DNA from: Patescibacteria group bacterium
Lineage (GTDB): Bacteria > Patescibacteriota > Patescibacteriia > UM-FILTER-42-10
DNA length: 64,000 nucleotides
Assembly (NCBI GenBank): GCA_041664365.1
Contig: JBAYKW010000001.1
Coordinates: forward strand, 7,168-71,167
Direction of reading: 5' to 3'
Shown piece after piece: positions 6,752-23,206 of the stretch. The notes below the pieces were generated by a model, which worked only from the letters and a program-made list of their open reading frames with translations, searched no databases and had not been told where the DNA came from. The translations under genes and the position numbers were made by a program. Within the stretch, counting starts at the first letter, position 1. Every line of letters starts with the position of its first letter.

Positions 6752-6817
6752 GGGGTCTTGACCCCGTTAGAGAAATTCTCTAACGGGGTTGACAAAATGA
6801 GTGTTTTGCTGTATGAT
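6752..6817 (+). promoter_or_regulatory. overlapping palindromes (ggggtcttgacccc; ccccgttagagaa/ttctctaacgggg) directly abutting a TTGACA-N17-TATGAT promoter
   Basis: TTGACA at 6789-6794, a 17-nt spacer, and TATGAT at 6812-6817. The 13-nt inverted-repeat arms are at 6762-6774 and 6776-6788. Confidence 0.45.
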
Positions 6818-6916
6818 GACACGTTTGCAGTATTGTCACAGTGACAGTACCTGTGAGCAGTCTACAGCGTTTCACTCCGAAGCGCGTAGACAGTACCTTA
6901 GCTAGGGGAGAGTGTC

Positions 6917-8863
6917 ATGCCGTATTTCCTTCAGGCACTGCTCGTAAGCGTCGTCTCCATCATGGTGCCGATCGCTTTCGGCGCTGTGCTGAAGTACCAC
7001 CGTCCCACAATCGCTTGGGCAGGTGGTTTCCTTGCCACTGTCCTGTACACTCTCATCGTGTTCTGGCTTTTCTGGAGCGGCGCTGTCGGCGTGTACGGAC
7101 CGACTCCGTTCGCTGATGCGCTCATCTTCGGGTTCGCCCTGTCGGGTGTCTTCATCGGCCTCGGGAGCGCCAAAGGGGGGTACAGAAACGAGTTCTCCGG
7201 CCGGAGTGTCATTGGCTTCGGCTCGGGCTGTGCTGCGATGCTGTGGGTGCTCGGCGTGAGCGTGTTCGGATCTTCGGACATGGTGCATGCCGAGAAGAAG
7301 GCAAGGGTGATCGGTACGGTCGCGGAAGTGACCGAGATCGCTGACGTCATCCAGCCCGCGGATCCGGCACACATCTGTCTTGTGTCCGAGTCGATCGCGC
7401 GCGTGAAGGCCAACCAGGCGCTGTCCGAGTTCAAGATGGACGGCGGTGTGGTGGCAGGATCGCGTTTCAAGATCGGTGACCCGACGAAGCAGTTCGTCTC
7501 CGGACAGCTGTGGTGGATCTTCCCGGTGGAGTTCCAGGGCTGGCTCAAGTGGCGTCAGTCCAAGGAAGTCCCCGGCTATATCCGCGTTTCGGCGGAAGAT
7601 CCGTACACGGAAGGTCAGGCTGTTCAGCAGGATAGCAACGGGCAGCCGATCGTCATCCGGTATCTGGAGAGCGCCTGCTGGGAGTTCCGGGCTGACCGCT
7701 ACCTGCGGGGACACGGGTATATGAGCGTGATCCTGAAGGATTTCACGTTCGAGGTAGACGACAACTGGCGTCCGTTCTATACGGTTTCAGTCATGAAAAG
7801 AACCGTCGGTTACGCCGGCGAAATCACGACCGGAGTCGTCACGCTTGATCTGCAGACCGGCGATGCCAATCCCTACGGTATCGCGAACCTCCCTTCGTGG
7901 ATCGACCGCGGTGTTCCGCTCGACGTGATCGACAAGAATCTCAAGCGCTGGGCGAAGTACCGGCTTGAGGGATGGTGGTACTGCCTCCTACACAACGACA
8001 AGTCGATGGAACCAACGGAAGGATGGTTCCTGATCACCGATCCCGACGGTACCAGTCAGTGGTTCACTGGGCTCACCTCAACCAACGCGGGCGACGAGGC
8101 ACTCACCGGCTACACGGTTTCGGACACACGCACAGGTCTCACGACATACGTGAAGGCCCAGGGTGTGACCGAGTCTGTCTCGGCTCAGGCTGCGAAGTCG
8201 CTCTGGAGCAACTTCGATGGGTACGAACCGACCGAGCTCGTTCCGTACAATCTCTATGGACGTCTGACGTATGTCATTCCGATGGCGTACAACGGACAGT
8301 TCAAGGGCGTCAGTCTCGTCTCGCTCTCCAACCAGGAGGTTGCGGCGAAGGGAGCGACGCTTGAAGAGGCGCTTCGTGAATACCGCAATGCGCTCGCGCG
8401 TTCGGGCAGTAATGCCCTTGCACCGAGCGGTGGAGACCTCGCGCAGCTGACAATCACCGGCGTGGTGGGGCGGGTCGGGCAGCCGATCAGCCAGCAGACT
8501 GGGCAGCCGGTCATTCCGTTCACGATTGATGGCGTGGCCAAGGTGTTCACGGCCATCTACACGTACGACAATCCTGCCGTACTCGTGATGCGATCCGGCG
8601 ACGCTGTGACAGTCGAGTACCTCCAGACTGGCGAACGCGTGATCGCTTGCGAATCGGTGATCCTGTCGGGCATCCCGATTTCCGACGAGAACCCGGTGCA
8701 GGCACGCGCGAATGAACATCGTGCAATCGCCGATCGTGAACGCGGTCGGATCGATACGCAGCAGGAGCGTAACCAACTTCTCGAGAGCAACCGGATGAAC
8801 AACGTTGATCCGGAAGCACTCAAGAAGTTCCTCGACAGCCAGTCCGACAGCACTGCTCATTAG
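6917..8863 (+). CDS. GC-rich polytopic membrane protein (4 N-terminal TM helices plus ~500-aa extracytoplasmic domain), function unknown
   Basis: 648-aa ORF in DNA visibly far more GC-rich than the flanks. GGGGAGAG lies before the ATG. Hydrophobic N-terminus. No family recognised. Antisense ORFs in this span are shadow ORFs. Confidence 0.7.
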   Translation: MPYFLQALLVSVVSIMVPIAFGAVLKYHRPTIAWAGGFLATVLYTLIVFWLFWSGAVGVYGPTPFADALIFGFALSGVFIGLGSAKGGYRNEFSGRSVIGFGSGCAAMLWVLGVSVFGSSDMVHAEKKARVIGTVAEVTEIADVIQPADPAHICLVSESIARVKANQALSEFKMDGGVVAGSRFKIGDPTKQFVSGQLWWIFPVEFQGWLKWRQSKEVPGYIRVSAEDPYTEGQAVQQDSNGQPIVIRYLESACWEFRADRYLRGHGYMSVILKDFTFEVDDNWRPFYTVSVMKRTVGYAGEITTGVVTLDLQTGDANPYGIANLPSWIDRGVPLDVIDKNLKRWAKYRLEGWWYCLLHNDKSMEPTEGWFLITDPDGTSQWFTGLTSTNAGDEALTGYTVSDTRTGLTTYVKAQGVTESVSAQAAKSLWSNFDGYEPTELVPYNLYGRLTYVIPMAYNGQFKGVSLVSLSNQEVAAKGATLEEALREYRNALARSGSNALAPSGGDLAQLTITGVVGRVGQPISQQTGQPVIPFTIDGVAKVFTAIYTYDNPAVLVMRSGDAVTVEYLQTGERVIACESVILSGIPISDENPVQARANEHRAIADRERGRIDTQQERNQLLESNRMNNVDPEALKKFLDSQSDSTAH

Positions 8864-8908
8864 TCCTTCGGGACCGCTACGAAGCCAGCGCTTGGCTTCC
8901 GCAAGACC

Positions 8909-8960
8909 CTATCATCCTCACCGATGATGCGATACCGGGGTCTTTTTCTTTTGTGTAATT
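8909..8960 (+). terminator. bipartite hairpin (gaccc/tatcatc…gatgatg/ggggtc) followed by tttttctttt
   Basis: Imperfect nested stem ending at ccggggtc, followed by a T-rich run, immediately 3' of the GC-rich gene. Confidence 0.35.
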
Positions 8961-8967
8961 TTCCTAT

Positions 8968-8996
8968 TTGACACAAAGTCAATCTTATGGTATGAT
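8968..8996 (+). promoter_or_regulatory. TTGACA-N17-TATGAT promoter upstream of M4 protease gene
   Basis: TTGACA at 8968-8973, exact 17-nt spacer, TATGAT at 8991-8996. Confidence 0.4.
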
Positions 8997-9110
8997 ATCA
9001 ATATTAATATGTGACTAAATAAATAAACATGTGGATTTATTATCCATTTCTGCAATCAACCCGACAATATGATTTGGTTGTTTTTGTTTATGTTGACTAA
9101 ATAGTACATC

Positions 9111-12100
9111 ATGAAAAAAATTATAACGTTTTTTCTGACATTAACGATATCAGTAATTTATTTAGTGGGTGTATTTCATAATGCTTATGCTGAATCAAAT
9201 CAAACTGAGGATTCTAATATTGCTCAATTACAAAATGAGGACGGGAAGGAAACATTAACTGATCTGCAAAACAAGTTGGGAGATAATCTGCAATACACTA
9301 TCGATCAGAATACTGGCAATTTATCTTTTATAAAAAGCCAGGGTAATGGAATACCGCTTACTGGTGCAAGTAGTAATGCAGTGGGTGGAACAAGTATGGC
9401 CGGGTTATTTTTGAAAGAATACGGCGCGTTGTTTGGGATTAATGATCCGGTGTCAGATTTATCCGTAATGAAAGAGACAACGGATGCATTGGGCATGAAA
9501 CACATCCGATATAATCAGCGCTATGCCGGCGTGCCGGTCTTTGGTGGAGAGGTGATTGTCCATTTGAATGGTAATCTGACGGTTGCTTCGGCCAACGGCA
9601 GGGCTATATCTAATACATCTTTAGATGTTACTCCTGTAATTTCCAGTGAAGTTGCTGTAACAAAAGCGAAAGAAATTTGGCAAAATCAATTCGATACAGA
9701 TAATCCGGAAGTGCTGAAAACAAACCTGTATGTTTTTAATAAATCGCTTTTTAACAAAAATAATGAAGATCAAAATTATTTAGTTTGGCAAATAGAATTA
9801 TATAAAAAAACTCCCAGTCTGCATGAATTTTATTTTATTGATACCCGAGACGGCAGTCTCGTTCACCAAATTACAGGTATCAAGAACGCCATTAGTCGCC
9901 GTATCTATGACTGTTCTTACGGAGATGGTTTTTGTTACTTAGATGCATATGATGCAGTCTCCGCTTATACATTAGGCCGTTCCGAAGGAAAGCCGATCCG
10001 CGGTACCAACCCCTGGTATGGTCTAACCGATGTGGATAATTTGTACAGTATAACAGGTTATGCTCATAATTATTTTTTAAATACATTTAGCCTTAACGGT
10101 GCAAATAATTTAGGCGGGCTGGGAGATGGAACTTATGTCCCATATACAAGGACTGAAGGCCTAGCTTATATAGACCCGGTGTATCCAGCATGTCCAAATG
10201 CTTTTTATGATGGTTACGCTATAAATTTCTGTACTGGCTGGGTAACTACCGATATTGTTGCTCATGAGTACGGTCATGGTGTTACTCAATTTTCTGTAGT
10301 AGATGGTTATGGAAATCCTGCCGGTTTGATTTATTCTGACGAATCGGGTGCTTTAAGTGAGTCTTATGCTGATGTTTTTGGTGAAGCTGTTGAGAATTAT
10401 AGTGATGGATCTGGTGATTGGTTGATTGGCGAGGATTTGACCGGTGGTGCCCTGCGCAGCATGAGTGATCCGATGAGTATGTCATATCCCGATCGTTTTA
10501 ACAGTCCTTATTTTTATTGTGGTGATTCTGACCAGGGGGGAGTTCATATCAATAACTCAGTACCGAATTACGCCGCATATTTAATGGCTATGGGTGGTAC
10601 TTTCAACAATTGTACGATTAATGGTATCGGGCGGGCTAAGGAAGAAGCAATATATTACCGCGCACTTACTCAATATCTCACCACCAGTTCCGGTTTTAAT
10701 GATGCATATAATGCTCTAGTCACTTCCTGCCAGGATCTTTATGGAGCTTTGAGCAGTGATTGCCGGCAAGTAGTTAAGGCTTTACGTGCGGTGGAAATGA
10801 ATCAGGGTGGATACTGCAGTGGACAGACAGCTGTTGACCCGGGTTGTGCTGTTATTGATGCGACGCCAAGTGTTACTCAAGTTTCATCTGATAAAGCTGA
10901 CGGTACTTATATTGCCGGTACCGTGATTGATATTGATGTTACTTTTTCTAAAGCGGTTACTTCAAGTGGTGAAATTACTGTAACTTTGGAAACGGGCGCT
11001 ACAGACAGAAGTTGTACTTTCTCAGTTAGCAACGCTGCTTTCGGCAGTTGTGACTATACCATTCAAGCCGGTGATAACAGTAACGATTTAAATGTTAAAA
11101 GCATTTCTGGCTCGATAACAGATGCTTACGGTAATACGGTAACTGACCTTACACCCGGAAGCGATTTGTCTAGTAATAAAAATATTAAAATCGGTGCTCC
11201 TACGCTTGGACTGTTACTTTCACAAGCATCTGATACTGAACCTTTCATCAAACGTGTTGGTCATCATGGCAACAAAATTAAATCATTCGCTGTACACAAA
11301 GGAAAAGGAGGGGTATTAAGTGTTGAAGCCGATATTAATGGTGACGGAATTAATGAAATTGTCGTTGCGCCAGAAGCCGGACTCGGAGGTAAGGTAAAGG
11401 CTTATACAAAAAACGGGGCAGCGCTTGCTTCTTTCAGTCCTTTTGGCAGTAAATTCAATGATGGAATCAGTCTTACTTCGGGCGATGTGAACAACGACGG
11501 GAAAAAAGAAATCATTGTTTCCCCGCTCACTAAGGGAACGCCAAAAATAAAAGTTTTCCGCTACGCAAATAAAAAATTTACACTGCTGAAAGAGATTAAA
11601 GTTTTTGGCAGTAGTGTCCCGGGCGGTCTGATTGTAAGTTCCGGTGATGTCAATGACGATAATATTGACGAAATTATTGTTTCGCCGTATCAGGATCAGG
11701 ATAAAAAAGATCGGGTGGTAAAAATCTATGCTTACCGTAACAACAAACTGGTTAAACTTGCTTCAAAACAGCTCTATAGTAAACGCACTGAATATCAGGG
11801 AATTAAAACTACCACTGCCGATCTGGACGGTGATGGCAGAGATGAAATTATTGCCACTCCTTCGCTAAATTTTGGCGATGACATCCAGGTCTACGGATAT
11901 GCAAACGGGGGGTTAACGCATCTGGATGATGTATGGGCATACTCCGCGTCTTTTAACGGGCTTACATCTCTTGCAACCGGCGACATTAATTCTGACGGCA
12001 GAAATGAAATTATGCTTACGATAAAAACCGGTGGATTACCTTATGTCTTTATCTATAAATTTAACAATGGAAAACTTGTTCTGCATGACAAATTCCGCGC

Positions 12101-12302
12101 ATATGATAAGGAATTTACCGGCGGTGTCAATCTTGCCGTGCTTGATATTGATGGAGATAATAAAGCGGAAGTGATCACTGCACCATATAGTGGTAAACAG
12201 AAAGTAAAAGTATGGGACGTCGAATCAACTAAACAAAAACTGCACTCTTCCTTTTGGGGGTTTGGCAAGGATTTTGAAGGTGGAATCAATTTTGCCCGGT
12301 AA
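9111..12302 (+). CDS. secreted M4 (thermolysin-like) zinc metallopeptidase with FTP/PepSY propeptide and C-terminal FG-GAP/VCBS β-propeller repeats
   Basis: Signal peptide. HEYGH zinc site within VAHEYGHGVTQF, plus GALSESYADVFGEAVE. At least six repeats of the form GDxNxDGxxEIIVxP. 1063 aa. Confidence 0.8.
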   Translation: MKKIITFFLTLTISVIYLVGVFHNAYAESNQTEDSNIAQLQNEDGKETLTDLQNKLGDNLQYTIDQNTGNLSFIKSQGNGIPLTGASSNAVGGTSMAGLFLKEYGALFGINDPVSDLSVMKETTDALGMKHIRYNQRYAGVPVFGGEVIVHLNGNLTVASANGRAISNTSLDVTPVISSEVAVTKAKEIWQNQFDTDNPEVLKTNLYVFNKSLFNKNNEDQNYLVWQIELYKKTPSLHEFYFIDTRDGSLVHQITGIKNAISRRIYDCSYGDGFCYLDAYDAVSAYTLGRSEGKPIRGTNPWYGLTDVDNLYSITGYAHNYFLNTFSLNGANNLGGLGDGTYVPYTRTEGLAYIDPVYPACPNAFYDGYAINFCTGWVTTDIVAHEYGHGVTQFSVVDGYGNPAGLIYSDESGALSESYADVFGEAVENYSDGSGDWLIGEDLTGGALRSMSDPMSMSYPDRFNSPYFYCGDSDQGGVHINNSVPNYAAYLMAMGGTFNNCTINGIGRAKEEAIYYRALTQYLTTSSGFNDAYNALVTSCQDLYGALSSDCRQVVKALRAVEMNQGGYCSGQTAVDPGCAVIDATPSVTQVSSDKADGTYIAGTVIDIDVTFSKAVTSSGEITVTLETGATDRSCTFSVSNAAFGSCDYTIQAGDNSNDLNVKSISGSITDAYGNTVTDLTPGSDLSSNKNIKIGAPTLGLLLSQASDTEPFIKRVGHHGNKIKSFAVHKGKGGVLSVEADINGDGINEIVVAPEAGLGGKVKAYTKNGAALASFSPFGSKFNDGISLTSGDVNNDGKKEIIVSPLTKGTPKIKVFRYANKKFTLLKEIKVFGSSVPGGLIVSSGDVNDDNIDEIIVSPYQDQDKKDRVVKIYAYRNNKLVKLASKQLYSKRTEYQGIKTTTADLDGDGRDEIIATPSLNFGDDIQVYGYANGGLTHLDDVWAYSASFNGLTSLATGDINSDGRNEIMLTIKTGGLPYVFIYKFNNGKLVLHDKFRAYDKEFTGGVNLAVLDIDGDNKAEVITAPYSGKQKVKVWDVESTKQKLHSSFWGFGKDFEGGINFAR

Positions 12303-12405
12303 TTTTGTGGACAATATATATTAATTCTTCATGAAAGCAACGTAACACTTTGATTGCTATATTTTGTGTATTTGAATAAATAATTTCGGTAAATAAGATA
12401 CCGCT

Positions 12406-12432
12406 TTGACATGCACTAATATGTATGATAAT
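12406..12432 (+). promoter_or_regulatory. TTGACA … (TATGAT/GATAAT) promoter-like element upstream of GC-rich lipoprotein gene
   Basis: TTGACA at 12406-12411. GATAAT follows after 15 nt, or TATGAT after 12 nt. AGGGAGGG RBS at 12466-12473. Confidence 0.35.
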
Positions 12433-12481
12433 TTAGTTTTTCCGCGCTCCAATTGTCTGTGTCGTTCCAGGGAGGGCAGAA

Positions 12482-13132
12482 ATGAAGTTGCTGGATGCCG
12501 GCGTCATGCTGGTGCTCGTGGTGCTGATGGCATGCTGCATGATCAACCGTGATGATGTGGCAACCAACAAGCCGGATATCAGTACGGCTCAGGCGGCGGT
12601 GGATACCGTCTCCTACGATCCACTCAATACTCCGCCGTCAGGGATATCGGCGGTCAACCGCTTCTACGCCATCGTGGCGGAATACTTCCGCACTGTCGAA
12701 GAAGAGAATTCCGCCTGGATGAGTAATGAGCAGCATTCCAAGACCCGGTTCGAGAAGGAAAATCTGACCAGCTTTTTCACCTGGTGCTGTTTGAGGGACT
12801 ATTACCAGGACAAGCTGACACCGGAAGACAAACGCTGGCTGTTTGCCAATCTGGACGGATCGCGCCCACTGCCAGTCGGCATCGCGTTCGACTACTGGGG
12901 TCCGATCACGGACGTCCTGGGATTTGAGCCGACGGGTAATCCGCGTGCAGATTTTGAGGACTTTCTCCTCAACTCCTTTCCGGATACGGATTACCAAACG
13001 GGGTTCGACGCCTTTCATGACGCAAAAGCCATGAAGGCAATTCACCAGACGGTCCGTGCGCGGATGAAATCGCTAGGGGTCGAATATCCCAATGATCTTT
13101 CGCAGGCCGAGAGTCTGCTCACGTCCGAATAG
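12482..13132 (+). CDS. GC-rich putative lipoprotein, unknown function
   Basis: Hydrophobic N-terminus with an L-M-A-C lipobox-like motif. GGAGG RBS. Codon usage far more GC-rich than the neighbours. Confidence 0.55.
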   Translation: MKLLDAGVMLVLVVLMACCMINRDDVATNKPDISTAQAAVDTVSYDPLNTPPSGISAVNRFYAIVAEYFRTVEEENSAWMSNEQHSKTRFEKENLTSFFTWCCLRDYYQDKLTPEDKRWLFANLDGSRPLPVGIAFDYWGPITDVLGFEPTGNPRADFEDFLLNSFPDTDYQTGFDAFHDAKAMKAIHQTVRARMKSLGVEYPNDLSQAESLLTSE

Positions 13133-13165
13133 AAGCAACCGCTTCTGTCCGGATTTTTTTATTTT
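13132..13165 (+). terminator. hairpin (gaagc aacc gcttc / tccgga) plus T7
   Basis: Short stems followed by TTTTTTTATTTT. Confidence 0.35.
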
Positions 13166-13166
13166 A

Positions 13167-13264
13167 CCCCCACACCAATATTATTAATAAAAATGGACGG
13201 ATATTTAATTGTAATTATGTTAGATTTATAAAATGTAAATTAAACTACCATATTGGTGTGGGGA
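13167..13264. repeat. 13-14 bp perfect inverted repeat (ccccacaccaata / tattggtgtgggg) bracketing a 70-bp AT-rich spacer
   Basis: Arms at 13168-13180 and 13251-13263. The arms are paralogous to the hairpin at 16347-16368. Confidence 0.55.
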
Positions 13265-13293
13265 TAAAAAAACGAAGACATGGTTAGTCTTCG
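13265..13293 (-). terminator. intrinsic terminator for the minus-strand GC-rich gene (stem cgaagac/gtcttcg, A-tract on + strand)
   Basis: On the - strand it reads cgaagac-taaccat-gtcttcg followed by TTTTTTT. The stop codon lies in the loop. Confidence 0.5.
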
Positions 13294-14155: not shown

Positions 14156-14158
14156 TGT

Positions 14159-16278: not shown

Positions 16279-16290
16279 ATTATATCGATA

Positions 16291-16326: not shown

Positions 16327-16346
16327 CCCGCATGGCTTGACTTCTA

Positions 16347-16396
16347 CCCCTACACTTGAGTGTGGGGGTTGACAAAAAATTTTATTCTGGTAGTAT
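16347..16396 (+). promoter_or_regulatory. hairpin cccctacac-ttga-gtgtggggg fused to TTGACA-N16-TAGTAT promoter
   Basis: 9-bp stem ending in GGGG immediately followed by TTGACA (16369-16374); TAGTAT at 16391-16396. Confidence 0.4.
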
Positions 16397-16470
16397 TGGC
16401 AATTACTGTCGCAGGTGGACGAAAAGTTCGCCACATGGATGTGAACCAAAGCCTCTAAGGGGACTGGTAC

Positions 16471-16908
16471 ATGCGTAAGCAGGCAAGTGCTTCCGTCGAT
16501 CGCGTGGAAAAACTCCGCCTCTGGGTGGAACGCTGTGATGATCATGACACGGGGAGTCTCTTCATGTCGATCCGGCCGGGTGCTTCAACACATGAAGGCG
16601 GCGTATATATCAGCTGCCAGGAAGGTACGAGGTACCTCTTCGCTGGTGAAGCAATTAACCTCAAGTCGCTGAATGCTGCTCTCGCGAGTAATATTCGCGA
16701 CGAATTCGAGGTGATTGTGACTGGCGTTCTCTACCAAGTCATTCATGGCGCCTTCGAGGTAGTTACTCAGGCACATCTGGCCGACACCGAGGATGGTGAA
16801 GGCAAGGTTGTGGCACCGAACTGGTCAGAAAAAGAACTGGCACGCATGCGCCGGGACTTTGCTCCCATCCACTTCATTCAGGCGGAAACGCTTGTCGTAA
16901 ACCTGTAG
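16471..16908 (+). CDS. GC-rich hypothetical protein (145 aa)
   Basis: GC-rich ORF between a promoter module and a terminator module. No recognisable domain. Confidence 0.5.
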   Translation: MRKQASASVDRVEKLRLWVERCDDHDTGSLFMSIRPGASTHEGGVYISCQEGTRYLFAGEAINLKSLNAALASNIRDEFEVIVTGVLYQVIHGAFEVVTQAHLADTEDGEGKVVAPNWSEKELARMRRDFAPIHFIQAETLVVNL

Positions 16909-16938
16909 ACAGTCCGTTCTTTTGGTCTTAACCGGCCG

Positions 16939-16978
16939 CCCGTAAATCCCCATTGGAATTTGCGGGATTTTTTTATTT
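16939..16978 (+). terminator. terminator module cccgtaaat-ccccattgga-atttgcggg + ATTTTTTTATTT
   Basis: 9-bp stem with one G·U pair, then a T-tract. Near-identical in design to the element at 17520-17556. Confidence 0.5.
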
Positions 16979-16996
16979 ATGAATTGGGGTGCTTAA

Positions 16997-17053
16997 CCCC
17001 GTTAGAGAAAATTATCTAGCCAGATTGACGGAATATTATTTTCTGTTAAGATA
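16997..17053 (+). promoter_or_regulatory. degenerate copy of the ccccgttagagaa element followed by TTGACG-N16/17-TAAGAT promoter-like sequence
   Basis: ccccgttagagaaa at 16997-17010 shares a 13-nt arm with 6762-6774 but the second arm has decayed. TTGACG at 17025-17030. Confidence 0.3.
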
Positions 17054-17129
17054 CTTATTCACAGTCAGGTATATTTCGATATCTGAATTGTGACCAGGCA
17101 CATTCGAGGAGTGGAGAGAGGAGTGGAGA

Positions 17130-17504
17130 ATGGAACAACAGGGCAGACATCATTCAGCCAGCGTGGAGAAGATTTTCGTTGCAGTGATACTGCGTCCTGA
17201 AGCTCTGCCCCAGGGCATGAGTTTTCTGGGAGACACGAGGGTTAACTTTTCCATCGGAGAAGTTGCCTTTCCCGAACTGCTTCCTTCGGATTCCTATCAT
17301 GTCGACGGAGAGTTGGATCAACTCACGGACGCTGGTCGGGAGAAGGTCAGGCCCGTCTGGAATCGTGCTGTGGATCAAGCCAGGACCCGACTGCCGGAAT
17401 TGGCGACTGTCTTCCCCGATTGGGAGGTGCGCTCCATCTTCCTTTATCGGAACGTCAACAATACCATGGTTCGTGATGTGGATCGATTTGATCTTAAACT
17501 TTAG
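17130..17504 (+). CDS. GC-rich hypothetical protein (124 aa)
   Basis: GC-rich ORF preceded by the direct repeat ggagtggaga(x2), which contains a GGAG RBS. No recognisable domain. Confidence 0.5.
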   Translation: MEQQGRHHSASVEKIFVAVILRPEALPQGMSFLGDTRVNFSIGEVAFPELLPSDSYHVDGELDQLTDAGREKVRPVWNRAVDQARTRLPELATVFPDWEVRSIFLYRNVNNTMVRDVDRFDLKL

Positions 17505-17519
17505 TTGCCATAGGCAACT

Positions 17520-17556
17520 CCCGCAATATCCCACTTGGTATTCGCGGGATTTTTTA
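17520..17556 (+). terminator. terminator module cccgcaata-tcccacttgg-tattcgcggg + ATTTTTTATT
   Basis: Stem with a one-nucleotide bulge, then T6. A paralogue of the element at 16939-16978. Confidence 0.5.
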
Positions 17557-17606
17557 TTGTAATATATTCAATTTTTGCATCAGAATTATGGTTTGGAAGA
17601 CGGGGG

Positions 17607-17635
17607 TTGACAGAATATTAAATTAGGTATATCAT
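17607..17635 (+). promoter_or_regulatory. GGGGG-TTGACA-N17-TATCAT promoter upstream of pilB
   Basis: TTGACA at 17607-17612, TATCAT at 17630-17635. Confidence 0.35.
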
Positions 17636-17718
17636 TGCATGTTTTGCTATTAATAAACGGTTGAAACAGATATTATCAAATAAATGTTCTAATCTTAGCC
17701 AAATAATTTTGTAATAAG

Positions 17719-19386
17719 ATGATTGCGACAAAACAGGTTACCGATGCCCTGAGAAAAGAGGGTATCTTATCCAAAGAAACATCGCATAAACTCAAGGAGT
17801 ACGAAAAACTCCAGATGGGTAATGTTTTGGATTTTTGTATTGAGCAAGGCATGGTCCCGTCATCTAAGCTGATTTCATTACTGCAGGAATCTCATTCACT
17901 GCAGGTAGTTGATTTGAATCAGGTAAAAATATATCCGGAAGTGGTTAAAAAACTTCCTTCTTCAATTTGTCTGGAACATTTGGTACTGCCCTTCCAGGAA
18001 GATAAAGCATATATTTATGTGGCAATGGCCCGACCGGAAAATACGGAACTGATTACTTATGTAAAAAAGTCGCTGAAAAAGGATGTGGCGGTGTATCTGG
18101 CCAATCAGAGGGATATTAAACAATACCTGGAGGAAACATTTAATAATTCCGCGGAATCAAGTAAAAAAGCAATTGATGAACTGATTGTCAGGGCATGCCG
18201 GATAAATAACACGCCGGAAACAATGGGACAGGAAGCCCCGATCATTTCATTATTAAACCAGATGATAATCTTCGGTATAAAAAGCGAAGCAAGCGACATG
18301 CATATTGAGCCGCGCGAAGATTCAGTTGCTGTGCGTTTTCGCATGGACGGCATGCTGCACCAATTTTTCACCCTGCCGAAAGAACTGCTAGCTCCGATAA
18401 TTGCGCGTACTAAAATATTATCTCAGATCCGTATTGACGAACATATGCGTCCACAGGACGGGAGATTCAGTTTTGACGAATCGGGATATAAAGTGGCGGT
18501 CCGTCTTTCTATCATCCCGACTCTGCACGGCCAGAAAGCATCCTTAAGATTTTTAGATACGGATAACGAGAACCTTTCGCTCAATACTTTGGGCCTGGAA
18601 AAAAACAATCGGGAAAATTTGAAAAAAATTCTTGGGTTTACCAATGGAATGGTTCTAATTACCGGCCCGACCGGCTCGGGTAAAACAACAACTTTGTATT
18701 CATTGATTAAAGAGATTAATAATCAGCAGGTTAATATTTCAACAATTGAAGATCCGATAGAATACCATCTGACCGGAGCGAACCAGATTCAGGTAAATCC
18801 GCATGTAGATTTGAATTTTGCGAGCGGTCTGCGTTCAATTTTGCGCCAGGATCCGGATATTATTATGATCGGAGAAATTCGGGACAAAGAAACTGCGACC
18901 ATTGCCATTAATGCCGCGATGACCGGTCATTTAGTATTAACATCTTTACATACCAACAGCGCCGCCGCCGCAATCCCGAGACTTTTGGATATGGGTGTGG
19001 AGCCGTATTTAATAGCTTCCACCTTGAAAGCAATTATCGGCCAGCGTTTGGTGCGTAATATATGCGCATCCTGTAAAACGGAATTTGTTGTCGATTCAAT
19101 TCCTAAAGAACTGGTAGAAAAATACTCTGCCACAGAAAAACCAATCGCTGCAAAAGGACAAGGGTGCCCTGAGTGTTTAAATACCGGATATTCAGGCCGA
19201 ACCGGAATTTTCGAAGTTTTAAATGTCGATGAAGATATCCATGATCTGATTATTAATCGGGCACATTCTTCATCAATAGAAGCAGCTGCCATAGCAAAAA
19301 ATATGAAATCGATGTATGAAGATGGAATAATCAAAGTACTTAATAAACAAACTACCTTAGAAGAGGTAATAAGGGTTACTAAATAA
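17719..19386 (+). CDS. pilB: type IV pilus / type II secretion assembly ATPase (PilB/GspE family)
   Basis: GspE N-terminal domain. Walker A GPTGSGKTTT. Asp/His boxes. C-terminal tetracysteine CASCK…CPEC. Confidence 0.85.
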   Translation: MIATKQVTDALRKEGILSKETSHKLKEYEKLQMGNVLDFCIEQGMVPSSKLISLLQESHSLQVVDLNQVKIYPEVVKKLPSSICLEHLVLPFQEDKAYIYVAMARPENTELITYVKKSLKKDVAVYLANQRDIKQYLEETFNNSAESSKKAIDELIVRACRINNTPETMGQEAPIISLLNQMIIFGIKSEASDMHIEPREDSVAVRFRMDGMLHQFFTLPKELLAPIIARTKILSQIRIDEHMRPQDGRFSFDESGYKVAVRLSIIPTLHGQKASLRFLDTDNENLSLNTLGLEKNNRENLKKILGFTNGMVLITGPTGSGKTTTLYSLIKEINNQQVNISTIEDPIEYHLTGANQIQVNPHVDLNFASGLRSILRQDPDIIMIGEIRDKETATIAINAAMTGHLVLTSLHTNSAAAAIPRLLDMGVEPYLIASTLKAIIGQRLVRNICASCKTEFVVDSIPKELVEKYSATEKPIAAKGQGCPECLNTGYSGRTGIFEVLNVDEDIHDLIINRAHSSSIEAAAIAKNMKSMYEDGIIKVLNKQTTLEEVIRVTK

Positions 19387-19394
19387 TTACAAAC

Positions 19395-20603
19395 ATGAGC
19401 AATTTTGAATATACATTTATTGATCTGGAAAACACCATCCACCGTGGATTAGCACGGGGTTGGACCAAGAAAAGAGTCTCAAAACAACTGTCCAATGAAG
19501 GCAATTCAGTTGTTACTTTAGTAAAGATAAAAAATAGAAATGCAATTTTTCAGAGTATGTTCCGGTATATTTCCAGGATTGACCGTATTCTTTTCATGCG
19601 CAGTCTGATGACTATGATGAAAGCGGGACTTAATTTACCGGACGCGCTGGCATCATCCCGGGAACAGAACTCCAATCCGAACATGAAAATAATTATTGCG
19701 GATCTTGAAAAGGCTGTTAATTCGGGAAAAACACTTTCATCCGCACTGGAAAAATACAAAAATGTTTTTTCCCCAGTTTCAATTGCCATGATCAGAATCG
19801 GCGAACACGGAGGAAAACTAGTTGATGTTCTGCAATTTCTGACTACTCAGCAAGAGAGTGATTATAAATTACTCAGGAAGATCAGAAATTCTTTGGTATA
19901 TCCGGCTCTTATTTTTGTAACAATGATTGCAATCGTGGCTGTGATGATGGTGGTGGTAATCCCGAGGATTGCAGCAATCTATGATGATGTTTCTGCGGAA
20001 CTGCCATTATTCACCCGCGCATTGATTGCGATCAGTAACTTTATCGTAAGCTACGGTTTGCTTCTGGCAGTCGGAATTGCGTTATTGATAATTTCTTTTC
20101 GGCTTGGTATTACGTATTCCGAGAAATTCAAAAAATCAATCCATCGTATGACACTTCGTTTGCCGATGGTTGGAATGGTTGTTAGAAAATTAAATTTAGC
20201 AATGATTTCCAGATCTCTACATATGTTAACCAAGTCCGGCGTTTCAATTGATCAAAGCCTGATATTAGCCAGTAATGCCGCAAGCAATGTTGTCTATCGT
20301 GATGCTGTCCGGTCAGGTGAAGTTTTTGTCAGACGCGGTGTTTCACTTTCCGATATCTTTAAAGGCGAGCCGGATCTGTTTTTACCGTTATTTCAGAAGA
20401 TGGTTTCAACCGGTGAAAAGACCGGTTATCTGGATGATATGCTTCAGCATTCGGCAAAATATTATGATGATGATATTCAGAATTGGAGCGATAATCTTTC
20501 AACGTTAATTGAACCGGTAATGCTCTTAATCACCGGCGTGCTGGTCGGCGGACTGGCCTTGGCAGTAATGTATCCGCTCTGGAACTTTGCAAACATATTA
20601 TGA
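19395..20603 (+). CDS. pilC: type IV pilus platform protein (PilC/GspF family)
   Basis: 402-aa polytopic protein with duplicated GspF-type domains, directly after pilB. Confidence 0.8.
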   Translation: MSNFEYTFIDLENTIHRGLARGWTKKRVSKQLSNEGNSVVTLVKIKNRNAIFQSMFRYISRIDRILFMRSLMTMMKAGLNLPDALASSREQNSNPNMKIIIADLEKAVNSGKTLSSALEKYKNVFSPVSIAMIRIGEHGGKLVDVLQFLTTQQESDYKLLRKIRNSLVYPALIFVTMIAIVAVMMVVVIPRIAAIYDDVSAELPLFTRALIAISNFIVSYGLLLAVGIALLIISFRLGITYSEKFKKSIHRMTLRLPMVGMVVRKLNLAMISRSLHMLTKSGVSIDQSLILASNAASNVVYRDAVRSGEVFVRRGVSLSDIFKGEPDLFLPLFQKMVSTGEKTGYLDDMLQHSAKYYDDDIQNWSDNLSTLIEPVMLLITGVLVGGLALAVMYPLWNFANIL

Positions 20604-21040
20604 ACAAACTAAAAAAACAACCCGGGTTTACTGTAATTGAAGTATTGATTGTTATTATCGCGATCAGCCTGATTGCCGGTGTGGCTGTAATTTCATTATC
20701 AAAGGGAAAAACAGGAGCGCAGGCTGTAACGGAAGCGGAAAAAGTCGCCCAGATTATCCGAGATGCTCAAGCGCGATCACAGTCGGCGGAAACAGGTCGC
20801 GCATGGGCGGTTCGATGTAACGGCAACTCAGTTGATTTAATGGCAATTAATCCGGAATCAATATCTGAAACATACAGCTTCCCGGAAAGATTTACGTGTT
20901 CTGCAAGCGATGACATTATTTTTGATAAACTAACCGGTATCCCGAGTCAGGATTTGGATTTATTCATCCGTCTTGATGGTGCTAATAGTTCGCGCATTGA
21001 AGTCAGAGTGCCAGGAACTGTTAAAATATCATCTTTATGA
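20600..21040 (+). CDS. prepilin-type (class III signal) pilin/pseudopilin
   Basis: N-terminus KKQPG|FTVIEVLIVIIAI has Gly at -1, Glu at +5 and a hydrophobic helix. Confidence 0.7.
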   Translation: MNKLKKQPGFTVIEVLIVIIAISLIAGVAVISLSKGKTGAQAVTEAEKVAQIIRDAQARSQSAETGRAWAVRCNGNSVDLMAINPESISETYSFPERFTCSASDDIIFDKLTGIPSQDLDLFIRLDGANSSRIEVRVPGTVKISSL

Positions 21041-21528
21041 ACTGGAAAGACCAAAAAGGAAGTTTGTTGATTGAAGTGCTGCTGAGCATCAGCCTGGCAG
21101 CGGTTTTTTCTTTGGCGATCGGTAATCTAATCGGAGTTAATCACCAGTTAGTTATCGCATCAAAGCAGGAGGTGGAAGCAACAGCCTATGCAAAAGAATC
21201 AATGGAGCAAATATTTGCCATAAAACAGTCCGATTGGAATAAAATCAGCGGTTTTTCTGAGGGGTTTTATCATATTGAAGAGGTCGGTAGTGAATTTCAA
21301 ATAGTCGTGCCAAGCGATCCGACACACCCTGAACAGGAACTTGACGGCAAGTATTACCGGACAGTCCATATCGGCAATGCTTATCGGGACATTTCAGGTA
21401 ATTTGAGTGATATGGGAACCGAAGATGCTCAAGCGAGAAGACTTGATGTAAAAGTGTCCTGGCAGGAAAGAGATAGCACAAGAAATATTGAATTTACCAG
21501 TTATGTTACTAACTGGAGGGGGCAATAA
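21037..21528 (+). CDS. minor pilin-like protein
   Basis: N-terminus QKG|SLLIEVLLSISLAAVF with Glu at +5. Confidence 0.55.
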   Translation: MNWKDQKGSLLIEVLLSISLAAVFSLAIGNLIGVNHQLVIASKQEVEATAYAKESMEQIFAIKQSDWNKISGFSEGFYHIEEVGSEFQIVVPSDPTHPEQELDGKYYRTVHIGNAYRDISGNLSDMGTEDAQARRLDVKVSWQERDSTRNIEFTSYVTNWRGQ

Positions 21529-22040
21529 TGAAGAATAAATTATTTAAATTAAATCAAAACGGTACAACATTAATGGAGTTGATGGTGTATTTAGGTATAT
21601 CCAGCGTGGTTACTCTGATGCTGACGATGTTTCTGGTGAACAGTACCGAGCAGCGAGTTATGACTAATGATCAGCAGATGGCTCAACATAATGCCAGACA
21701 GGTGATTGAAAAGATGACTTACTCTTTGCGCAACGCTTATAGTGTTGATGTTCAAGCAAGCGGGACAAAAGCGGTGATTTATTCCTATTACTATACAAAT
21801 CCGGGTATTCCAGACAATGTAATTACGGTATATGAGCTGAATGGCGGAAAAATGTATTATGGGCAGGATATTAACACGATTCCTGATCCTTCCGGTATGA
21901 AACTTTTGACCGATGAAGATGTGAATGTATCACTAGTTTCTTTTAAAAAAGTTTCTTCTTCACTTCGAATTAATCTGAATGTAGAAAAAGGAGAAGGGAA
22001 GTCGGATATTAATTCTACTGTGTCTTTCAGACAGCAATAA
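21528..22040 (+). CDS. minor pilin-like protein
   Basis: N-terminus NG|TTLMELMVYLGISSVV with Glu at +5. Confidence 0.55.
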   Translation: MKNKLFKLNQNGTTLMELMVYLGISSVVTLMLTMFLVNSTEQRVMTNDQQMAQHNARQVIEKMTYSLRNAYSVDVQASGTKAVIYSYYYTNPGIPDNVITVYELNGGKMYYGQDINTIPDPSGMKLLTDEDVNVSLVSFKKVSSSLRINLNVEKGEGKSDINSTVSFRQQ

Positions 22041-22041
22041 C

Positions 22042-23085
22042 ATGAAAAATAATGTTGTAAAGAATCAGCAAGGAAGCATAACCATTTTAATGGTCTTCTT
22101 TACAATGATAGTAATGTTTCTTTTTGTCTTTTCTAATAATGTTACCGCTACCAGGGAAAAAGTCATTACCCGTAATGCGATTGCGACAGAAAAAGCATTT
22201 TACTCGGCACAAACCTGCATTGAAGAAGGATATCTGCAATTACGCACAGATGAAAATTATGCCGGTACAACAATTAATATTAATGGAGTAGAATGCGAAG
22301 TAATTCCCCAGCATAATGCCGGTGTAGCTTCGGGCAAACTGGTTGGTACCGGAACATTTTCTGAAAGTGTCAGAACGGTTGCCAGTTATTATGCCGACGC
22401 TGGCGCATCAACTGTACGAAACGATACAACGATCTATCATATCATAGACCGCTCAGGCAGTATGGACGATGACGGCAACGGATGCACAGTCGCGGGTTTA
22501 TATAATCCGACAGACTGTACGAATAACGGCGGTGTGTGGGGTCCTCAGCCGATGATATTTGCCAGAGAAGCGGCAAAGTCTTTTATCAATGAAATGGATC
22601 CCGCTTACGACAAAATCGGCGTAGTGCATTATGACGATGTTGCCGGATGTGATTTTATCGCTTCTGCTGATTTATCAGCTGCTCGAGTTGCTGTAGATAC
22701 GGTTCCGGACCCGGACGGCGGTTATACTAATATCGGTGATGCGATTGCTCTGGCAACAAGTAATATTGTCACATATGCACCAGGTACAGATATAAAGGTG
22801 GAAATTATGCTGACAGACGGGGTTACTAACCGACCAAATAATGAGACATACGCCGAACAGTTTGCATTGGATCAGGCAAATATTGCCGACAGCAACGGTA
22901 TACTAATATTTGCCATTGGACTGGGTAGTAGTGTCAATGAAGATTTTTTAAGAAATGATATAGCTACAGACCCTACTATGTATTTCTACGCGCCTTCGCC
23001 GGAAGATTTAGAAGGTATTTATAACCAAATTGCCAACATCATTCTTTCCTACAACATCAGCCAAGACGGCTGGATAGAGGAATAG
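22042..23085 (+). CDS. pilus-associated von Willebrand factor A protein (TadG-like, N-terminal pseudopilin-like TM helix)
   Basis: N-terminal hydrophobic helix. vWA MIDAS motif DRSGSMDDDG, TNIGDAIALA and ILTDGVTN. Confidence 0.65.
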   Translation: MKNNVVKNQQGSITILMVFFTMIVMFLFVFSNNVTATREKVITRNAIATEKAFYSAQTCIEEGYLQLRTDENYAGTTININGVECEVIPQHNAGVASGKLVGTGTFSESVRTVASYYADAGASTVRNDTTIYHIIDRSGSMDDDGNGCTVAGLYNPTDCTNNGGVWGPQPMIFAREAAKSFINEMDPAYDKIGVVHYDDVAGCDFIASADLSAARVAVDTVPDPDGGYTNIGDAIALATSNIVTYAPGTDIKVEIMLTDGVTNRPNNETYAEQFALDQANIADSNGILIFAIGLGSSVNEDFLRNDIATDPTMYFYAPSPEDLEGIYNQIANIILSYNISQDGWIEE

Positions 23086-23104
23086 TTTAATATTTTTTGA
23101 GTGT

Positions 23105-23140
23105 GCAGGCGCGACATCGATGTCGCGCCTGCTTTGATTA
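23105..23140 (+). terminator. 12-bp perfect GC-rich hairpin (gcaggcgcgaca-tcga-tgtcgcgcctgc) + TTTGATT
   Basis: Follows the stop of the vWA gene. Confidence 0.55.
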
Positions 23141-23148
23141 GGTATTGA

Positions 23149-23206
23149 CCCCATTAGAAACATTGTTTCTAATGGGGTTGACAATCCTTCTCTGATATGA
23201 TACCAT
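23149..23206 (+). promoter_or_regulatory. palindrome ccccattagaaaca/tgtttctaatgggg fused to TTGACA … TATGATA promoter-like element
   Basis: TTGACA at 23178-23183. TATGAT at 23196-23201 gives a 12-nt spacer; alternatively TACCAT at N17. Same hairpin-GGGG-TTGACA architecture as 6762 and 16347. Confidence 0.4.

What the first reader, a model, noticed from the sequence alone, without database searches (positions are those of the whole stretch)
6752..23206. Family of hairpins ending in GGGG fused to a TTGACA -35 box, repeatedly preceding GC-rich genes
The motif ccccgttagagaa occurs at 6762 (perfect palindrome) and 16997 (decayed second arm). cccc(t)acac…gtgtgggg occurs at 16347 and as 13-bp inverted repeats bracketing an AT-rich 70-mer at 13168/13251. 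ccccattagaaaca/tgtttctaatgggg occurs at 23149. In four cases the stem's 3' GGGG abuts TTGACA with a TATGAT/TATCAT/TAGTAT -10 about 16-17 nt later. A terminator-then-promoter 'insulator' module recurring at several insertion points suggests a mobile or recombinogenic cassette boundary.
Basis: seen in the sequence. Interest (0 to 1): 0.65.

Follow-up and report, generated by a model that had tools for sequence, protein, structure and literature searches.

The report
Tiny mobile palindromes inserted into promoters
The hairpins "fused" to the TTGACA promoter box are copies of a previously undescribed, very small (27-40 bp) jumping DNA element of candidate-phyla-radiation bacteria that landed inside the promoter's -35 box and rebuilt it by duplicating the four bases TTGA; they are neither terminators nor gene-cassette borders.

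Summary
GGGGTTGACA occurs 4 times against 0.1 expected, and three copies carry strong hairpins. The window is a Patescibacteria (CPR) chromosome.

The CCCC-R-TTAGA…TCTAA-Y-GGGG hairpins (6762, 23149; decayed 16997 and 53559-53581 minus) belong to a family with at least 120 copies in groundwater and sediment metagenomes. The family has about 12-bp conserved termini (CCCCGTTAGAAA) and a variable centre, and is 26-164 bp long. An exact 4-bp direct repeat flanks 41 of 126 copies (0.5 expected), which is a target-site duplication.

A relative gives an empty site (L354, …gagTTGAttttt…TATAAT) and an occupied site (L351, the same sequence with a 102-bp element and TTGA duplicated).

In the window the duplication is TTGA, and its right copy starts the -35 TTGACA. 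The family prefers TTNAC targets. Of the 16 independent intergenic TTGAC words here, 12 are -35 boxes, and 8 of those 12 promoters drive GC-rich genes.

There is no support for terminator or insulator function, and the hairpins are not needed for cassette exchange. The CCCC-Y-ACAC hairpins (16347, 13168) remain unresolved, and no transposase was found. Verdict: a new, unusually small MITE-like family of moderate interest.

The parts
6762..6788 (.). A-type element, 27 bp, perfect palindrome CCCCGTTAGAGAA-A-TTCTCTAACGGGG
   Evidence: DNA hairpin -14.4 kcal/mol, z -8. Matches the family pattern found in metagenomes.
6758..6761 (+). Left copy of the 4-bp target-site duplication TTGA. The right copy is 6789-6792.
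   Evidence: tcTTGA|element|TTGAcaaa.
6789..6817 (+). Promoter TTGACA-17-TATGAT (extended -10 TGt) driving the GC-rich 648-aa gene 6917-8863. Its first four bases are the right TSD copy.
   Evidence: 11/12 match; gene GC 0.60, GC3 0.75; conserved CPR protein.
23149..23177 (.). A-type element, 29 bp, perfect palindrome CCCCATTAGAAACA-T-TGTTTCTAATGGGG, with TTGA duplicated at 23145-23148 and 23178-23181
   Evidence: -14.0 kcal/mol, z -7.
23178..23206 (+). Promoter TTGACA-17-TACCAT driving the GC-rich 174-aa gene 23219-23743
16997..17024 (.). Decayed A-type element. The left arm CCCCGTTAGAGAAA is intact; the right arm has 5 of 13 positions changed. Flanks are TTAA / TTGA. The 12 nt of left flank resemble those of copy 6762.
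   Evidence: no stable fold.
17025..17052 (+). Promoter TTGACG-16-TAAGAT driving the GC-rich 124-aa gene 17130-17504
53559..53581 (-). Decayed A-type element (tatcGATTAGTATACTAATGGag) with TTGA at 53585-53582 and TTGACA at 53558-53553 (minus strand). That promoter reads towards a repeat region and a reverse-transcriptase gene.
   Evidence: (CTAATGGAGTTGACAA vs CTAATGGGGTTGACAA, 15/16).
16347..16368 (.). B-type hairpin CCCCTACAC-TTGA-GTGTGGGGG abutting TTGACA (16369-16374; -10 TAGTAT 16391-16396), before the GC-rich 145-aa gene 16471-16908. A second TTGAC lies at 16337-16341. Its nature is unresolved.
   Evidence: -8.5 kcal/mol, z -3.3.
13159..13272 (.). B-type long hairpin: arms CCCCCACACCAATAT / ATATTGGTGTGGGG around a 68-nt AT-rich centre. 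It lies exactly between the terminators of two convergent GC-rich genes and has no TSD. Its nature is unresolved.
   Evidence: One relative, L104 620-732, shares only about 13 terminal nt.
17603..17635 (+). GGGGGTTGACA-17-TATCAT promoter of pilB with no hairpin. It may be a relic of a right arm or may be chance.
   Evidence: 0 kcal/mol.

Best explanation
The CCCC-R-TTAGA…TCTAA-Y-GGGG hairpins are copies of a non-autonomous DNA transposon, a MITE-like element. It consists of little more than two abutting ~12-bp terminal inverted repeats (consensus CCCCGTTAGAAA).

A transposase supplied in trans, not yet identified, makes a 4-bp staggered cut at a preferred TTNAC word and joins the element. Repair then duplicates the four bases.

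In this genome the target word was the TTGA of the -35 hexamer TTGACA. The left copy of TTGA is left stranded upstream of the hairpin. The right copy, together with the original CA, restores an intact -35 box directly against the element's terminal GGGG.

The promoter and the gene it drives were there first. The element only pushes the DNA upstream of -35 away by 31-33 bp.

The link with GC-rich genes arises because nearly all consensus TTGAC promoters in this genome belong to compositionally atypical single-gene islets.

Shown: family membership, the target-site duplication, an empty-versus-occupied site pair, the target consensus, and pre-existence of the promoters.

Inferred: a DDE-type cut-and-paste or copy mechanism, the identity of the enzyme (an IS1380/piggyBac-like one is only a lead), and that the promoters stay active.
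For: 1. The same termini occur in at least 120 metagenome stretches and 18 unique copies from viral contigs. Interiors vary, and stems extend beyond the 10 bp forced by the search pattern in 73 of 115 distinct sequences.

2. Exact 4-nt direct repeats flank 41 of 126 copies against 0.5 expected. Another 23 match at 3 of 4 positions against 5.9 expected. Only 1 extends to 5 nt, and a shifted control gives 1. Longer elements of 62-164 bp with the same ends show this in 8 of 16.

3. One 40-bp sequence sits at 8 or more sites with unrelated flanks, always as TTTA|…|TTTACY.

4. Nested copies occur.

5. Empty versus occupied site, between genomes whose L11 proteins are 97% identical. L354 reads …gaaaagagTTGAtttttaggtctaaatatggTATAAT. 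L351 has the same sequence plus a 102-bp element and a second TTGA, a 106-nt gap in the alignment. A second case has CAAG/CTTG duplicated at cTTGACA-17-TAATAT; that promoter is unoccupied in L354, L356 and L358.

6. The window copies read TTGA|element|TTGAca at 6762, 23149 and, decayed, 53581.

7. The target consensus from 39 reconstructed sites is T-T-T-A-C-T, with C as the fifth base in 23 of 39.

8. Of 16 independent intergenic TTGAC words in the window, 12 are -35 boxes, and 8 of those 12 promoters drive GC-rich genes. That gives P(4 of 4) = 0.32 and 0.20, so no further mechanism is needed.
Against: - No autonomous copy or transposase was found in the window or in about 1 Mb of loci.
- The elements are smaller than the 50-800 bp usually given for prokaryotic MITEs (PMC11602168). 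Whether a 27-bp palindrome is itself a transposition substrate is untested.
- About half of the metagenome copies lack matching flanks. I attribute this to recombination between copies, which is inferred and not shown.
- Some copies in viral contigs have A-run/T-run flanks like terminators.
- One L351 copy replaces a native hairpin without a duplication.
- No close relative of the window's own genome was available, so its own sites have no empty-site control.
- Copies 6762 and 16997 share 12 nt of left flank, so at least one of them may have arisen by duplication or recombination of a module rather than by a fresh insertion.
- If only a 4-bp TTGA preference is assumed, placement at promoters is non-random (P=0.001). 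The explanation therefore depends on the fifth-base preference.
Confidence: 0.85

Rival explanations
1. PeSL-like composite regulatory cassette. The hairpin plus strong promoter would be one unit bordering ORFan gene cassettes, and recombination between such units would insert, delete and shuffle the GC-rich genes.
For: - PeSLs of T4-type phages are strong sigma-70 promoters with polyG…polyC stem-loops, sometimes upstream of -35. They flank ORFans and recombine (PMC2839356, PMC4122927).
- In the window, islets D and E are bracketed by three successive modules (16347, 16997, 17603). Their terminators share 21 nt at 90% identity although the proteins are unrelated.
- Copies 6762 and 16997 share a left flank and left arm.
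- The rplK-dprA slot of a related lineage holds a different ORFan cassette, each with its own promoter and terminator, in each genome.
- Non-matching but target-like flanks suggest recombination between copies.
Against: - The hairpin has its own target-site duplication and inserts into promoters that already exist.
- In the hyperplastic slot, three of four genomes exchange cassettes with no element present.
- Islets at 12482, 13284(-) and 37674 have consensus promoters but no such hairpin.
- Shared sequence between modules is only 13-21 nt.
- Family-wide, the elements are not at compositional boundaries.
Confidence: 0.12
2. Intrinsic terminator or transcriptional insulator. The hairpin would stop read-through from the upstream gene just before the next promoter.
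For: The stem is GC-capped, stable and intergenic, and lies between a gene end and a promoter. Several viral-contig copies have A-run/T-run flanks.
Against: - GGGG is followed by TTGACAAAA or TTGACAATC, not by a T-tract.
- The terminator scan does not call these hairpins, but it does call canonical terminators 15-40 nt upstream: 6698-6721, 13129-13148 and 23105-23132.
- Only 7 of 125 family copies are followed by a T-run.
Confidence: 0.05
3. Operator site. The palindrome at about -50 would bind a dimeric regulator that controls the foreign genes.
For: Perfect palindromes centred at about -46 to -50 relative to the predicted start sites of three promoters.
Against: - Inner sequences and half-site spacing differ between promoters (27, 29 and 21 bp).
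- In the family the distance between the conserved ends ranges from 6 to about 140 nt.
- Most copies elsewhere are not near promoters; only 1 convincing case in 121.
- Target-site duplications are not a property of operators.
Confidence: 0.03
4. REP/RAYT-type or IS200/IS605-type (PATE) hairpin mobilised as single-stranded DNA by a Y1 (HUH) transposase. In this view the two 4-nt repeats would be identical cleavage tetranucleotides rather than a true duplication.
For: The element is a 26-40-nt GC-capped palindrome, similar in size to REPs. One subfamily always has the same tetranucleotide, TTTA. A Y1 transposase gene occurs in a related genome.
Against: - At least 17 different flanking tetranucleotides match on both sides of elements with the same termini.
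- The empty site contains a single TTGA and the occupied site two, which is a real duplication.
- There is no conserved GTAG-type head.
- The Y1 gene in L358 has its own unrelated ends.
- Copy number is low, 4-6 per 64 kb.
Confidence: 0.04

Closest known systems
Bacterial MITEs, e.g. Correia/NEMIS elements of Neisseria (PMC10969869)
   Same: Non-coding, with terminal inverted repeats and a short target-site duplication. Many dispersed and nested copies, mostly intergenic and close to gene starts. Able to form hairpins in DNA or RNA, with a potential influence on neighbouring promoters.
   Different: - Size is 26-40 bp (mode 29-32) for most copies, against 50-800 bp for prokaryotic MITEs in general and 204 bp reported for the original Correia element.
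- The TSD is 4 bp at TTNAC. My recollection that Correia elements duplicate TA was not checked here.
- The element carries no promoter of its own. The -35 box is rebuilt from the duplicated target.
- No cognate IS is known.
PeSL (promoter-early stem-loop) cassettes of T4-type phages (PMC2839356, PMC4122927)
   Same: A near-consensus TTGACA-N17-TATAAT promoter combined with a G/C-capped stem-loop, sometimes just upstream of -35. They lie next to ORFan-like genes in plastic regions.
   Different: - PeSLs are phage regulatory units without target-site duplications. Their stem-loops act as terminators, and they work through recombination between copies.
- Here the context is a cellular genome, the hairpin is an independent insertion with a TSD, and terminator features are absent.
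IS elements that create hybrid promoters, and the IS1380 / piggyBac group
   Same: Insertions that leave a functional promoter at the junction. piggyBac has 4-bp TTAA duplications and ends starting CCC (PMC10140906), and it is paired with IS1380-like elements in prokaryotes (PMC5718144). Both resemble the CCCC…TAGA ends and TTNA-type 4-bp duplications seen here.
   Different: - In hybrid promoters the -35 lies inside the IS end. Here it comes from the duplicated target.
- No transposase was found, so the IS1380 link is untested. The figures "CC ends, 4-5-bp repeats" for IS1380 are from my memory only.
REP/BIME elements with RAYT transposases
   Same: Very short (20-40 nt) GC-rich extragenic palindromes.
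   Different: REPs have no target-site duplication, have a conserved GTAG head, sit mostly at 3' ends in clusters, and occur in hundreds of copies. None of this is seen here.

Membership tests
MITE (non-autonomous TIR transposon) | Short and non-coding | tested here: met
   26-164 bp, too short to encode a protein.
MITE (non-autonomous TIR transposon) | Terminal inverted repeats conserved among copies | tested here: met
   Terminal consensus CCCCGTTAGAAA on both ends of 115 distinct sequences, with variable interiors.
MITE (non-autonomous TIR transposon) | Target-site duplication of fixed length | tested here: met
   4 nt exact in 41 of 126 copies (0.5 expected) and 3 of 4 in 23 more; only 1 at 5 nt. 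An empty/occupied pair shows one versus two TTGA.
MITE (non-autonomous TIR transposon) | Multiple dispersed copies at unrelated sites; presence/absence polymorphism between relatives | tested here: met
   At least 120 metagenome stretches. One 40-bp sequence at 8 or more unrelated sites. L351 has three copies where L354, L356 and L358 have none.
MITE (non-autonomous TIR transposon) | Cognate autonomous element with matching ends and a transposase | tested here: inconclusive
   None in the window or in the loci held. Public collections could not be scanned for distant TIR pairs.
PeSL-type promoter/stem-loop recombination cassette | Strong sigma-70-like promoter joined to a stem-loop | tested here: met
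   10-11 of 12 consensus matches, with hairpins abutting -35.
PeSL-type promoter/stem-loop recombination cassette | Stem-loop acts as a transcription terminator | not testable with these tools
   The sequence argues against it: there is no T-tract and a separate canonical terminator lies upstream.
PeSL-type promoter/stem-loop recombination cassette | Copies flank ORFans on both sides, and indels between close relatives have breakpoints in the copies | tested here: not met
   In the rplK-dprA slot, cassettes differ among four close relatives, but only one of them carries elements. Most window islets have a hairpin on one side only or on neither.
Intrinsic (rho-independent) terminator | GC-rich stem followed directly by a T/U tract | tested here: not met
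   The stem is followed by TTGACAAAA or TTGACAATC and is not called by the terminator scan. 7 of 125 family copies have a T-run.
REP / RAYT system | No target duplication; conserved GTAG-type head; RAYT gene flanked by REPs | tested here: not met
   A real duplication is shown. There is no GTAG head. The only Y1 gene seen has unrelated ends.
Integron attC site / gene cassette | RYYYAAC…GTTRRRY core sites at the outer ends, promoterless cassettes in one array next to intI | tested here: not met
   - The order of the core-like words is reversed (GTTAGA…TCTAAC inside CCCC/GGGG).
- Each islet has its own promoter and terminator.
- No integrase is in the window.
IS1380-derived element (piggyBac-related transposase) | Ends and duplication length matching an IS1380-family transposase encoded in the same genomes | not tested
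   This rests on resemblance only: CCC-type ends and a 4-bp TTNA-like duplication. No transposase sequence is in hand.

The most novel reading that the evidence does not exclude
The most novel reading has two parts.

First, the family may be a promoter-seeking transposon. Its enzyme would recognise -35-like hexamers (TTGACA, TTTACT, TTGATT), perhaps aided by the promoter DNA context. It would insert so that the -35 box is regenerated, planting a cruciform-prone palindrome at position -36. That would make it a mobile, promoter-proximal regulatory and recombination module in streamlined CPR genomes.

Second, at 26-32 bp these would be the smallest known elements that transpose with a target-site duplication.

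In the window and in L351 together, 6 of 8 A-type copies abut a -35 hexamer with a properly spaced -10.
Probability: 0.2. Interest if true: 0.7.

Novelty: new member of a known kind. Interest (0 to 1): 0.45.

Why it matters
- It replaces an attractive but wrong reading (an insulator or cassette border) with a tested one.

- It documents a widespread mobile element family in candidate-phyla-radiation bacteria. I found no description of MITEs for these bacteria in the searchable literature. The elements fall below the 50-bp size floor of current MITE surveys, so such surveys would miss them.

- It shows how a transposon whose target word overlaps the -35 consensus can pepper promoters without destroying them. 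That gives a simple route to promoter-proximal structural variation and to ectopic recombination sites in very small genomes.

- It supplies a sequence tag, CCCCGTTAGAAA with a 4-bp duplication, that can be used to hunt for the responsible transposase and to link CPR hosts with their viruses.

Tried and rejected
- **Phage origin or a true PeSL context:** no megablast match of 6000-24000 to 50,697 phage records. The gene content is chromosomal.
- **Structured RNA or tRNA:** no Rfam hit at gathering score and no tRNA in 64 kb.
- **Close relatives of the window's genome for empty-site tests:** none. The best PilB match in GTDB representatives is 44% identical, and the best homologue of the 648-aa protein is 54%. 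The Logan contig L001 is identical to the window.
- **Family-wide promoter targeting:** rejected, with only 1 convincing case in 121.
- **Family-wide association with GC boundaries:** rejected, p=0.6.
- **Autonomous copy:** the 689-bp TIR pair in L099 is a 63-bp element plus a chance match inside murG. The solo arms are nested elements or chance matches, one of them inside 23S rRNA.
- **Y1 transposase in L358 as the mobiliser:** rejected, because it has its own ends.
- **B-type pattern in viral contigs:** these are mostly ordinary terminators (55 of 96 with T/A-run flanks, TSD in 3 of 96), so they give no support for a B-type mobile family.
- **Concatenated islet-protein query:** it returned nothing, not even the proteins themselves. 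This is an artefact and was ignored.
- **attC/integron and operator readings:** rejected on anatomy (see the membership tests).
- **Literature:** no relevant paper contains CCCCGTTAGA or describes MITEs in Patescibacteria.

Full report
**1.

- 6762-6788 and 23149-23177 are perfect palindromes with 13- and 14-nt arms.
- 16997 keeps the left arm of the 6762 copy, but its right arm has decayed.
- 16347-16368 and the arm pair 13159-13181 / 13250-13272 form a second type, CCCC-Y-ACAC.

GGGGTTGACA occurs four times, all on the + strand, against 0.10 expected. The hairpin-plus-TTGAC pattern occurs three times against 0.09 expected. Folded as single-stranded DNA, the three intact hairpins give -14.4, -14.0 and -8.5 kcal/mol, with z-scores of -8, -7 and -3.3.

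The adjoining promoters match the sigma-70 consensus at 10-11 of 12 positions, several with an extended -10.

Two corrections apply. The fourth GGGGTTGACA, at 17603, has no stem at all and precedes pilB. A further decayed copy lies on the minus strand at 53559-53581.

**2. Context.**

The window is a bacterial chromosome carrying addA, a P-type ATPase, pyk, an ABC transporter, type IV pilus genes, pheST, gyrB, nusG-rplK-rplA and pyr genes. It comes from a Patescibacteria MAG (392-kb contig, protein MFA6391130.1).

The "GC-rich genes" are real. They are discrete single-gene islets of 52-60% GC in a roughly 40% GC background. Their GC3 is 0.55-0.76 against 0.33-0.47, with a normal codon-position pattern. 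Each has its own near-consensus promoter and intrinsic terminator.
- The 648-aa gene encodes a protein conserved across CPR lineages. It is also GC-enriched in a Komeilibacteria genome.
- The 216-aa protein has only 13 distant homologues among 1.84 billion representatives.

**3. What the hairpins are.**

I scanned JGI metagenomes for the A-type ends without requiring a promoter (CCCCRTTAGA-N6..20-TCTAAYGGGG).

The copies share about 12 terminal nucleotides (CCCCGTTAGAAA) and differ in the centre. The stem runs past the 10 bp forced by the pattern in 73 of 115 distinct sequences.

The key result concerns the flanks.
- 41 of 126 unique copies are flanked by an exact 4-nt direct repeat, against 0.5 expected.
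- 23 more match at three of four positions, against 5.9 expected.
- Only one repeat extends to 5 nt, and a shifted control gives one.
- At least 17 different tetranucleotides are duplicated.

Longer elements of 62-164 bp with the same ends behave alike, in 8 of 16 cases. Copies are nested within one another. One 40-bp sequence sits at eight or more sites with unrelated flanks, always as TTTA|…|TTTACY. These are the hallmarks of a non-autonomous TIR transposon with a 4-bp target-site duplication.

**4. Direct proof of insertion.**

The closest relative that carries the element (L112, which is part of L351) is Berkelbacteria-like; its L11 is 70% identical to the window's. It has sister genomes whose L11 proteins are 96-97% identical to its own and whose gene order is the same.

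At the stop codon of rplK, L354 reads …gaaaagagTTGAtttttaggtctaaatatggTATAAT…. L351 reads …gaaaagagTTGA|CCCCGTTAGAGAAAATATTTC…102 bp…TCTCTAACGGGG|TTGAtttttaggtctaaatatggTATAAT…. In the alignment this is a clean 106-nt gap, made of the element plus one TTGA.

A second L351 element has CAAG (CTTG on the other strand) duplicated at cTTGACA-17-TAATAT. That promoter is present and unoccupied in L354, L356 and L358.

In both cases the promoter existed first, and the element landed in its -35 hexamer.

**5. Why GGGG is "fused" to TTGACA in the window.**

The two perfect copies read tcTTGA|element|TTGAcaaa and taTTGA|element|TTGAcaat. The decayed minus-strand copy reads TTGA|…|TTGACA. The duplicated target is TTGA, and its right-hand copy is the start of the -35 box. 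Removing the element and one TTGA restores ordinary promoters.

**6. Why promoters, and why GC-rich genes.**

Thirty-nine reconstructed empty sites give the target consensus T-T-T-A-C-T, with C as the fifth base in 23 of 39. The family therefore prefers TTNAC.

In the window there are 100 TTGAC words. Eighty-one lie in genes, where an insertion would be lost to selection, and 19 are intergenic. Three of those 19 are the stranded left copies, which leaves 16 independent sites. Twelve of the 16 are -35 boxes with a -10 at 16-18 nt.
- Four of four elements at promoters then has P=0.32.
- Eight of those 12 promoters drive GC-rich islets, two drive low-GC islands, and only two drive native genes. 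Four of four before GC-rich genes then has P=0.20.

If only a 4-bp TTGA preference is assumed, the promoter placement would be unlikely (P=0.001). The fifth-base preference therefore matters to the argument.

Across the family at large there is no promoter association (one convincing case in 121) and no association with compositional boundaries (p=0.6). The elements are depleted from long open frames: 40% lie in them, against 75% of random positions.

**7. What the hairpins are not.**

- **Not terminators.** No T-tract follows the stem. A canonical terminator lies 15-40 nt upstream in each case and is called by the scan, while the CCCC hairpins are not. Only 7 of 125 family copies are followed by a T-run.
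- **Not operators.** Spacing and inner sequence vary freely.
- **Not REP/RAYT or IS200-type hairpins.** The duplication is real, and the one Y1 transposase seen nearby has its own ends.
- **Not attC sites.**

**8. What remains of the cassette idea.**

- The terminators of islets D and E share 21 nt, although their proteins are unrelated.
- Copies 6762 and 16997 share 12 nt of left flank and an identical left arm, while the right arm of 16997 has 5 of 13 changes.
- Half of the metagenome copies have flanks that do not match each other, yet each flank is target-like (about 50% against 5% background). Recombination between palindromic copies would produce this.
- The rplK-dprA slot of the related lineage carries a different ORFan cassette in each genome.

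However, three of those four genomes have no element in the slot. The elements are therefore not required for cassette turnover. At most they are occasional recombination substrates.

**9. Unresolved.**

- No transposase or autonomous copy was found. The CCC-type ends and TTNA-like 4-bp duplication recall piggyBac and its prokaryotic IS1380-like relatives, but that is a lead, not a test.
- The B-type hairpins share only about 13 terminal nucleotides with one outside relative and show no duplication. The same pattern in viral contigs marks ordinary terminators.
- The stem-less GGGGGTTGACA at 17603 may be a relic.

**10. Verdict.**

The A-type hairpins are a new, unusually small MITE-like family. 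Most copies are 26-40 bp, below the 50-800 bp usually quoted. The family is widespread in CPR-type metagenomes and is also present in some viral contigs. In this genome the copies sit in -35 boxes because the target word overlaps the -35 consensus. I rate it as a new member of a known kind, of moderate interest.

Noticed in passing
window promoters at 6327, 6789, 12406, 13862(-), 16369, 17025, 23178, 37521, 53554(-), 62804(-) versus 8968 and 17607: Ten of the twelve intergenic TTGAC-type promoters drive compositionally atypical genes (eight GC-rich islets, two low-GC islands). Only two drive native genes. Foreign-looking single-gene islets, each with its own consensus promoter (often with an extended -10) and its own terminator, are a feature of this genome in their own right.
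   Followed up: partly
window 51677-52993 (-), 53056-53205 and 53371-53520: A reverse-transcriptase gene lies in a low-GC island, next to a 150-nt direct repeat at 98% identity. This may be a diversity-generating retroelement (template and variable repeats). A bAvd-like / 23S-IVP gene sits at 25466-25825, between pheS and pheT.
   Followed up: partly
window 50203-50237 and 51620-51654: A 35-nt direct repeat (97% identical) brackets 1.4 kb containing the GC-rich ORF 50979-51545(-). It could mark the ends of a small integrated segment.
   Followed up: no
window 40600-40660; 50469-50541: A 61-nt imperfect palindrome (GTCATKCTGAATTTATTTCA…) lies just after GC-rich islet 37674-40499. Related copies lie in the 50187-50577 spacer. 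This is another palindromic repeat family.
   Followed up: no
window 44683-44729 and 49196-49241: Arrays of the heptamer GTAATTN, in inverted orientation, lie in two spacers that bracket the pyrimidine-biosynthesis genes.
   Followed up: no
window 37674-40499 and 62823-63980 (-): GC-rich islet 37674-40499 encodes a protein with a T9SS-type sorting domain and a 748-aa protein resembling a tail fibre or a Bdellovibrio mosaic adhesive trimer. A Baseplate_J-like protein is encoded at the window's end.
   Followed up: no
window 6316-6334: The terminator hairpin of pyruvate kinase (AGTGTCgggtcttGACACT plus a T-run) contains the -35 TTGACA of the next promoter (6327). That promoter drives a small GC-rich segment at 6400-6700.
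   Followed up: no
L351 10430-10980; L354 10420-10760; L356 10470-10700; L358 8090-8460: In Berkelbacteria-like genomes the rplK-dprA slot holds a conserved ~200-nt non-coding stretch between two convergent strong promoters with a shared bidirectional terminator; it matches no Rfam family. Next to it lies an ORFan cassette that differs in each lineage (213, 101/185 and 70 aa). In L351 a 40-bp element replaces a native hairpin of this stretch.
   Followed up: partly
L358 17196-17970: An IS200/IS605-like element: a 227-aa ORF with a weak Y1_Tnp Pfam hit, bounded by CAGTTTAACATCCGATGT-type ends. It is unrelated to the hairpin family.
   Followed up: partly
L002 2542-3945 and 10001-11881: The Komeilibacteria genome carries a reverse-transcriptase and bAvd gene pair. 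Its homologue of the 648-aa protein is likewise GC-enriched (43% against 31%) and follows a CCCCAGTTTATCTGGGG-T6 terminator and a TTGACA promoter.
   Followed up: no
window 1-64000: There is no Rfam match at gathering score and no tRNA in 64 kb, and no T-box ahead of pheS.
   Followed up: no
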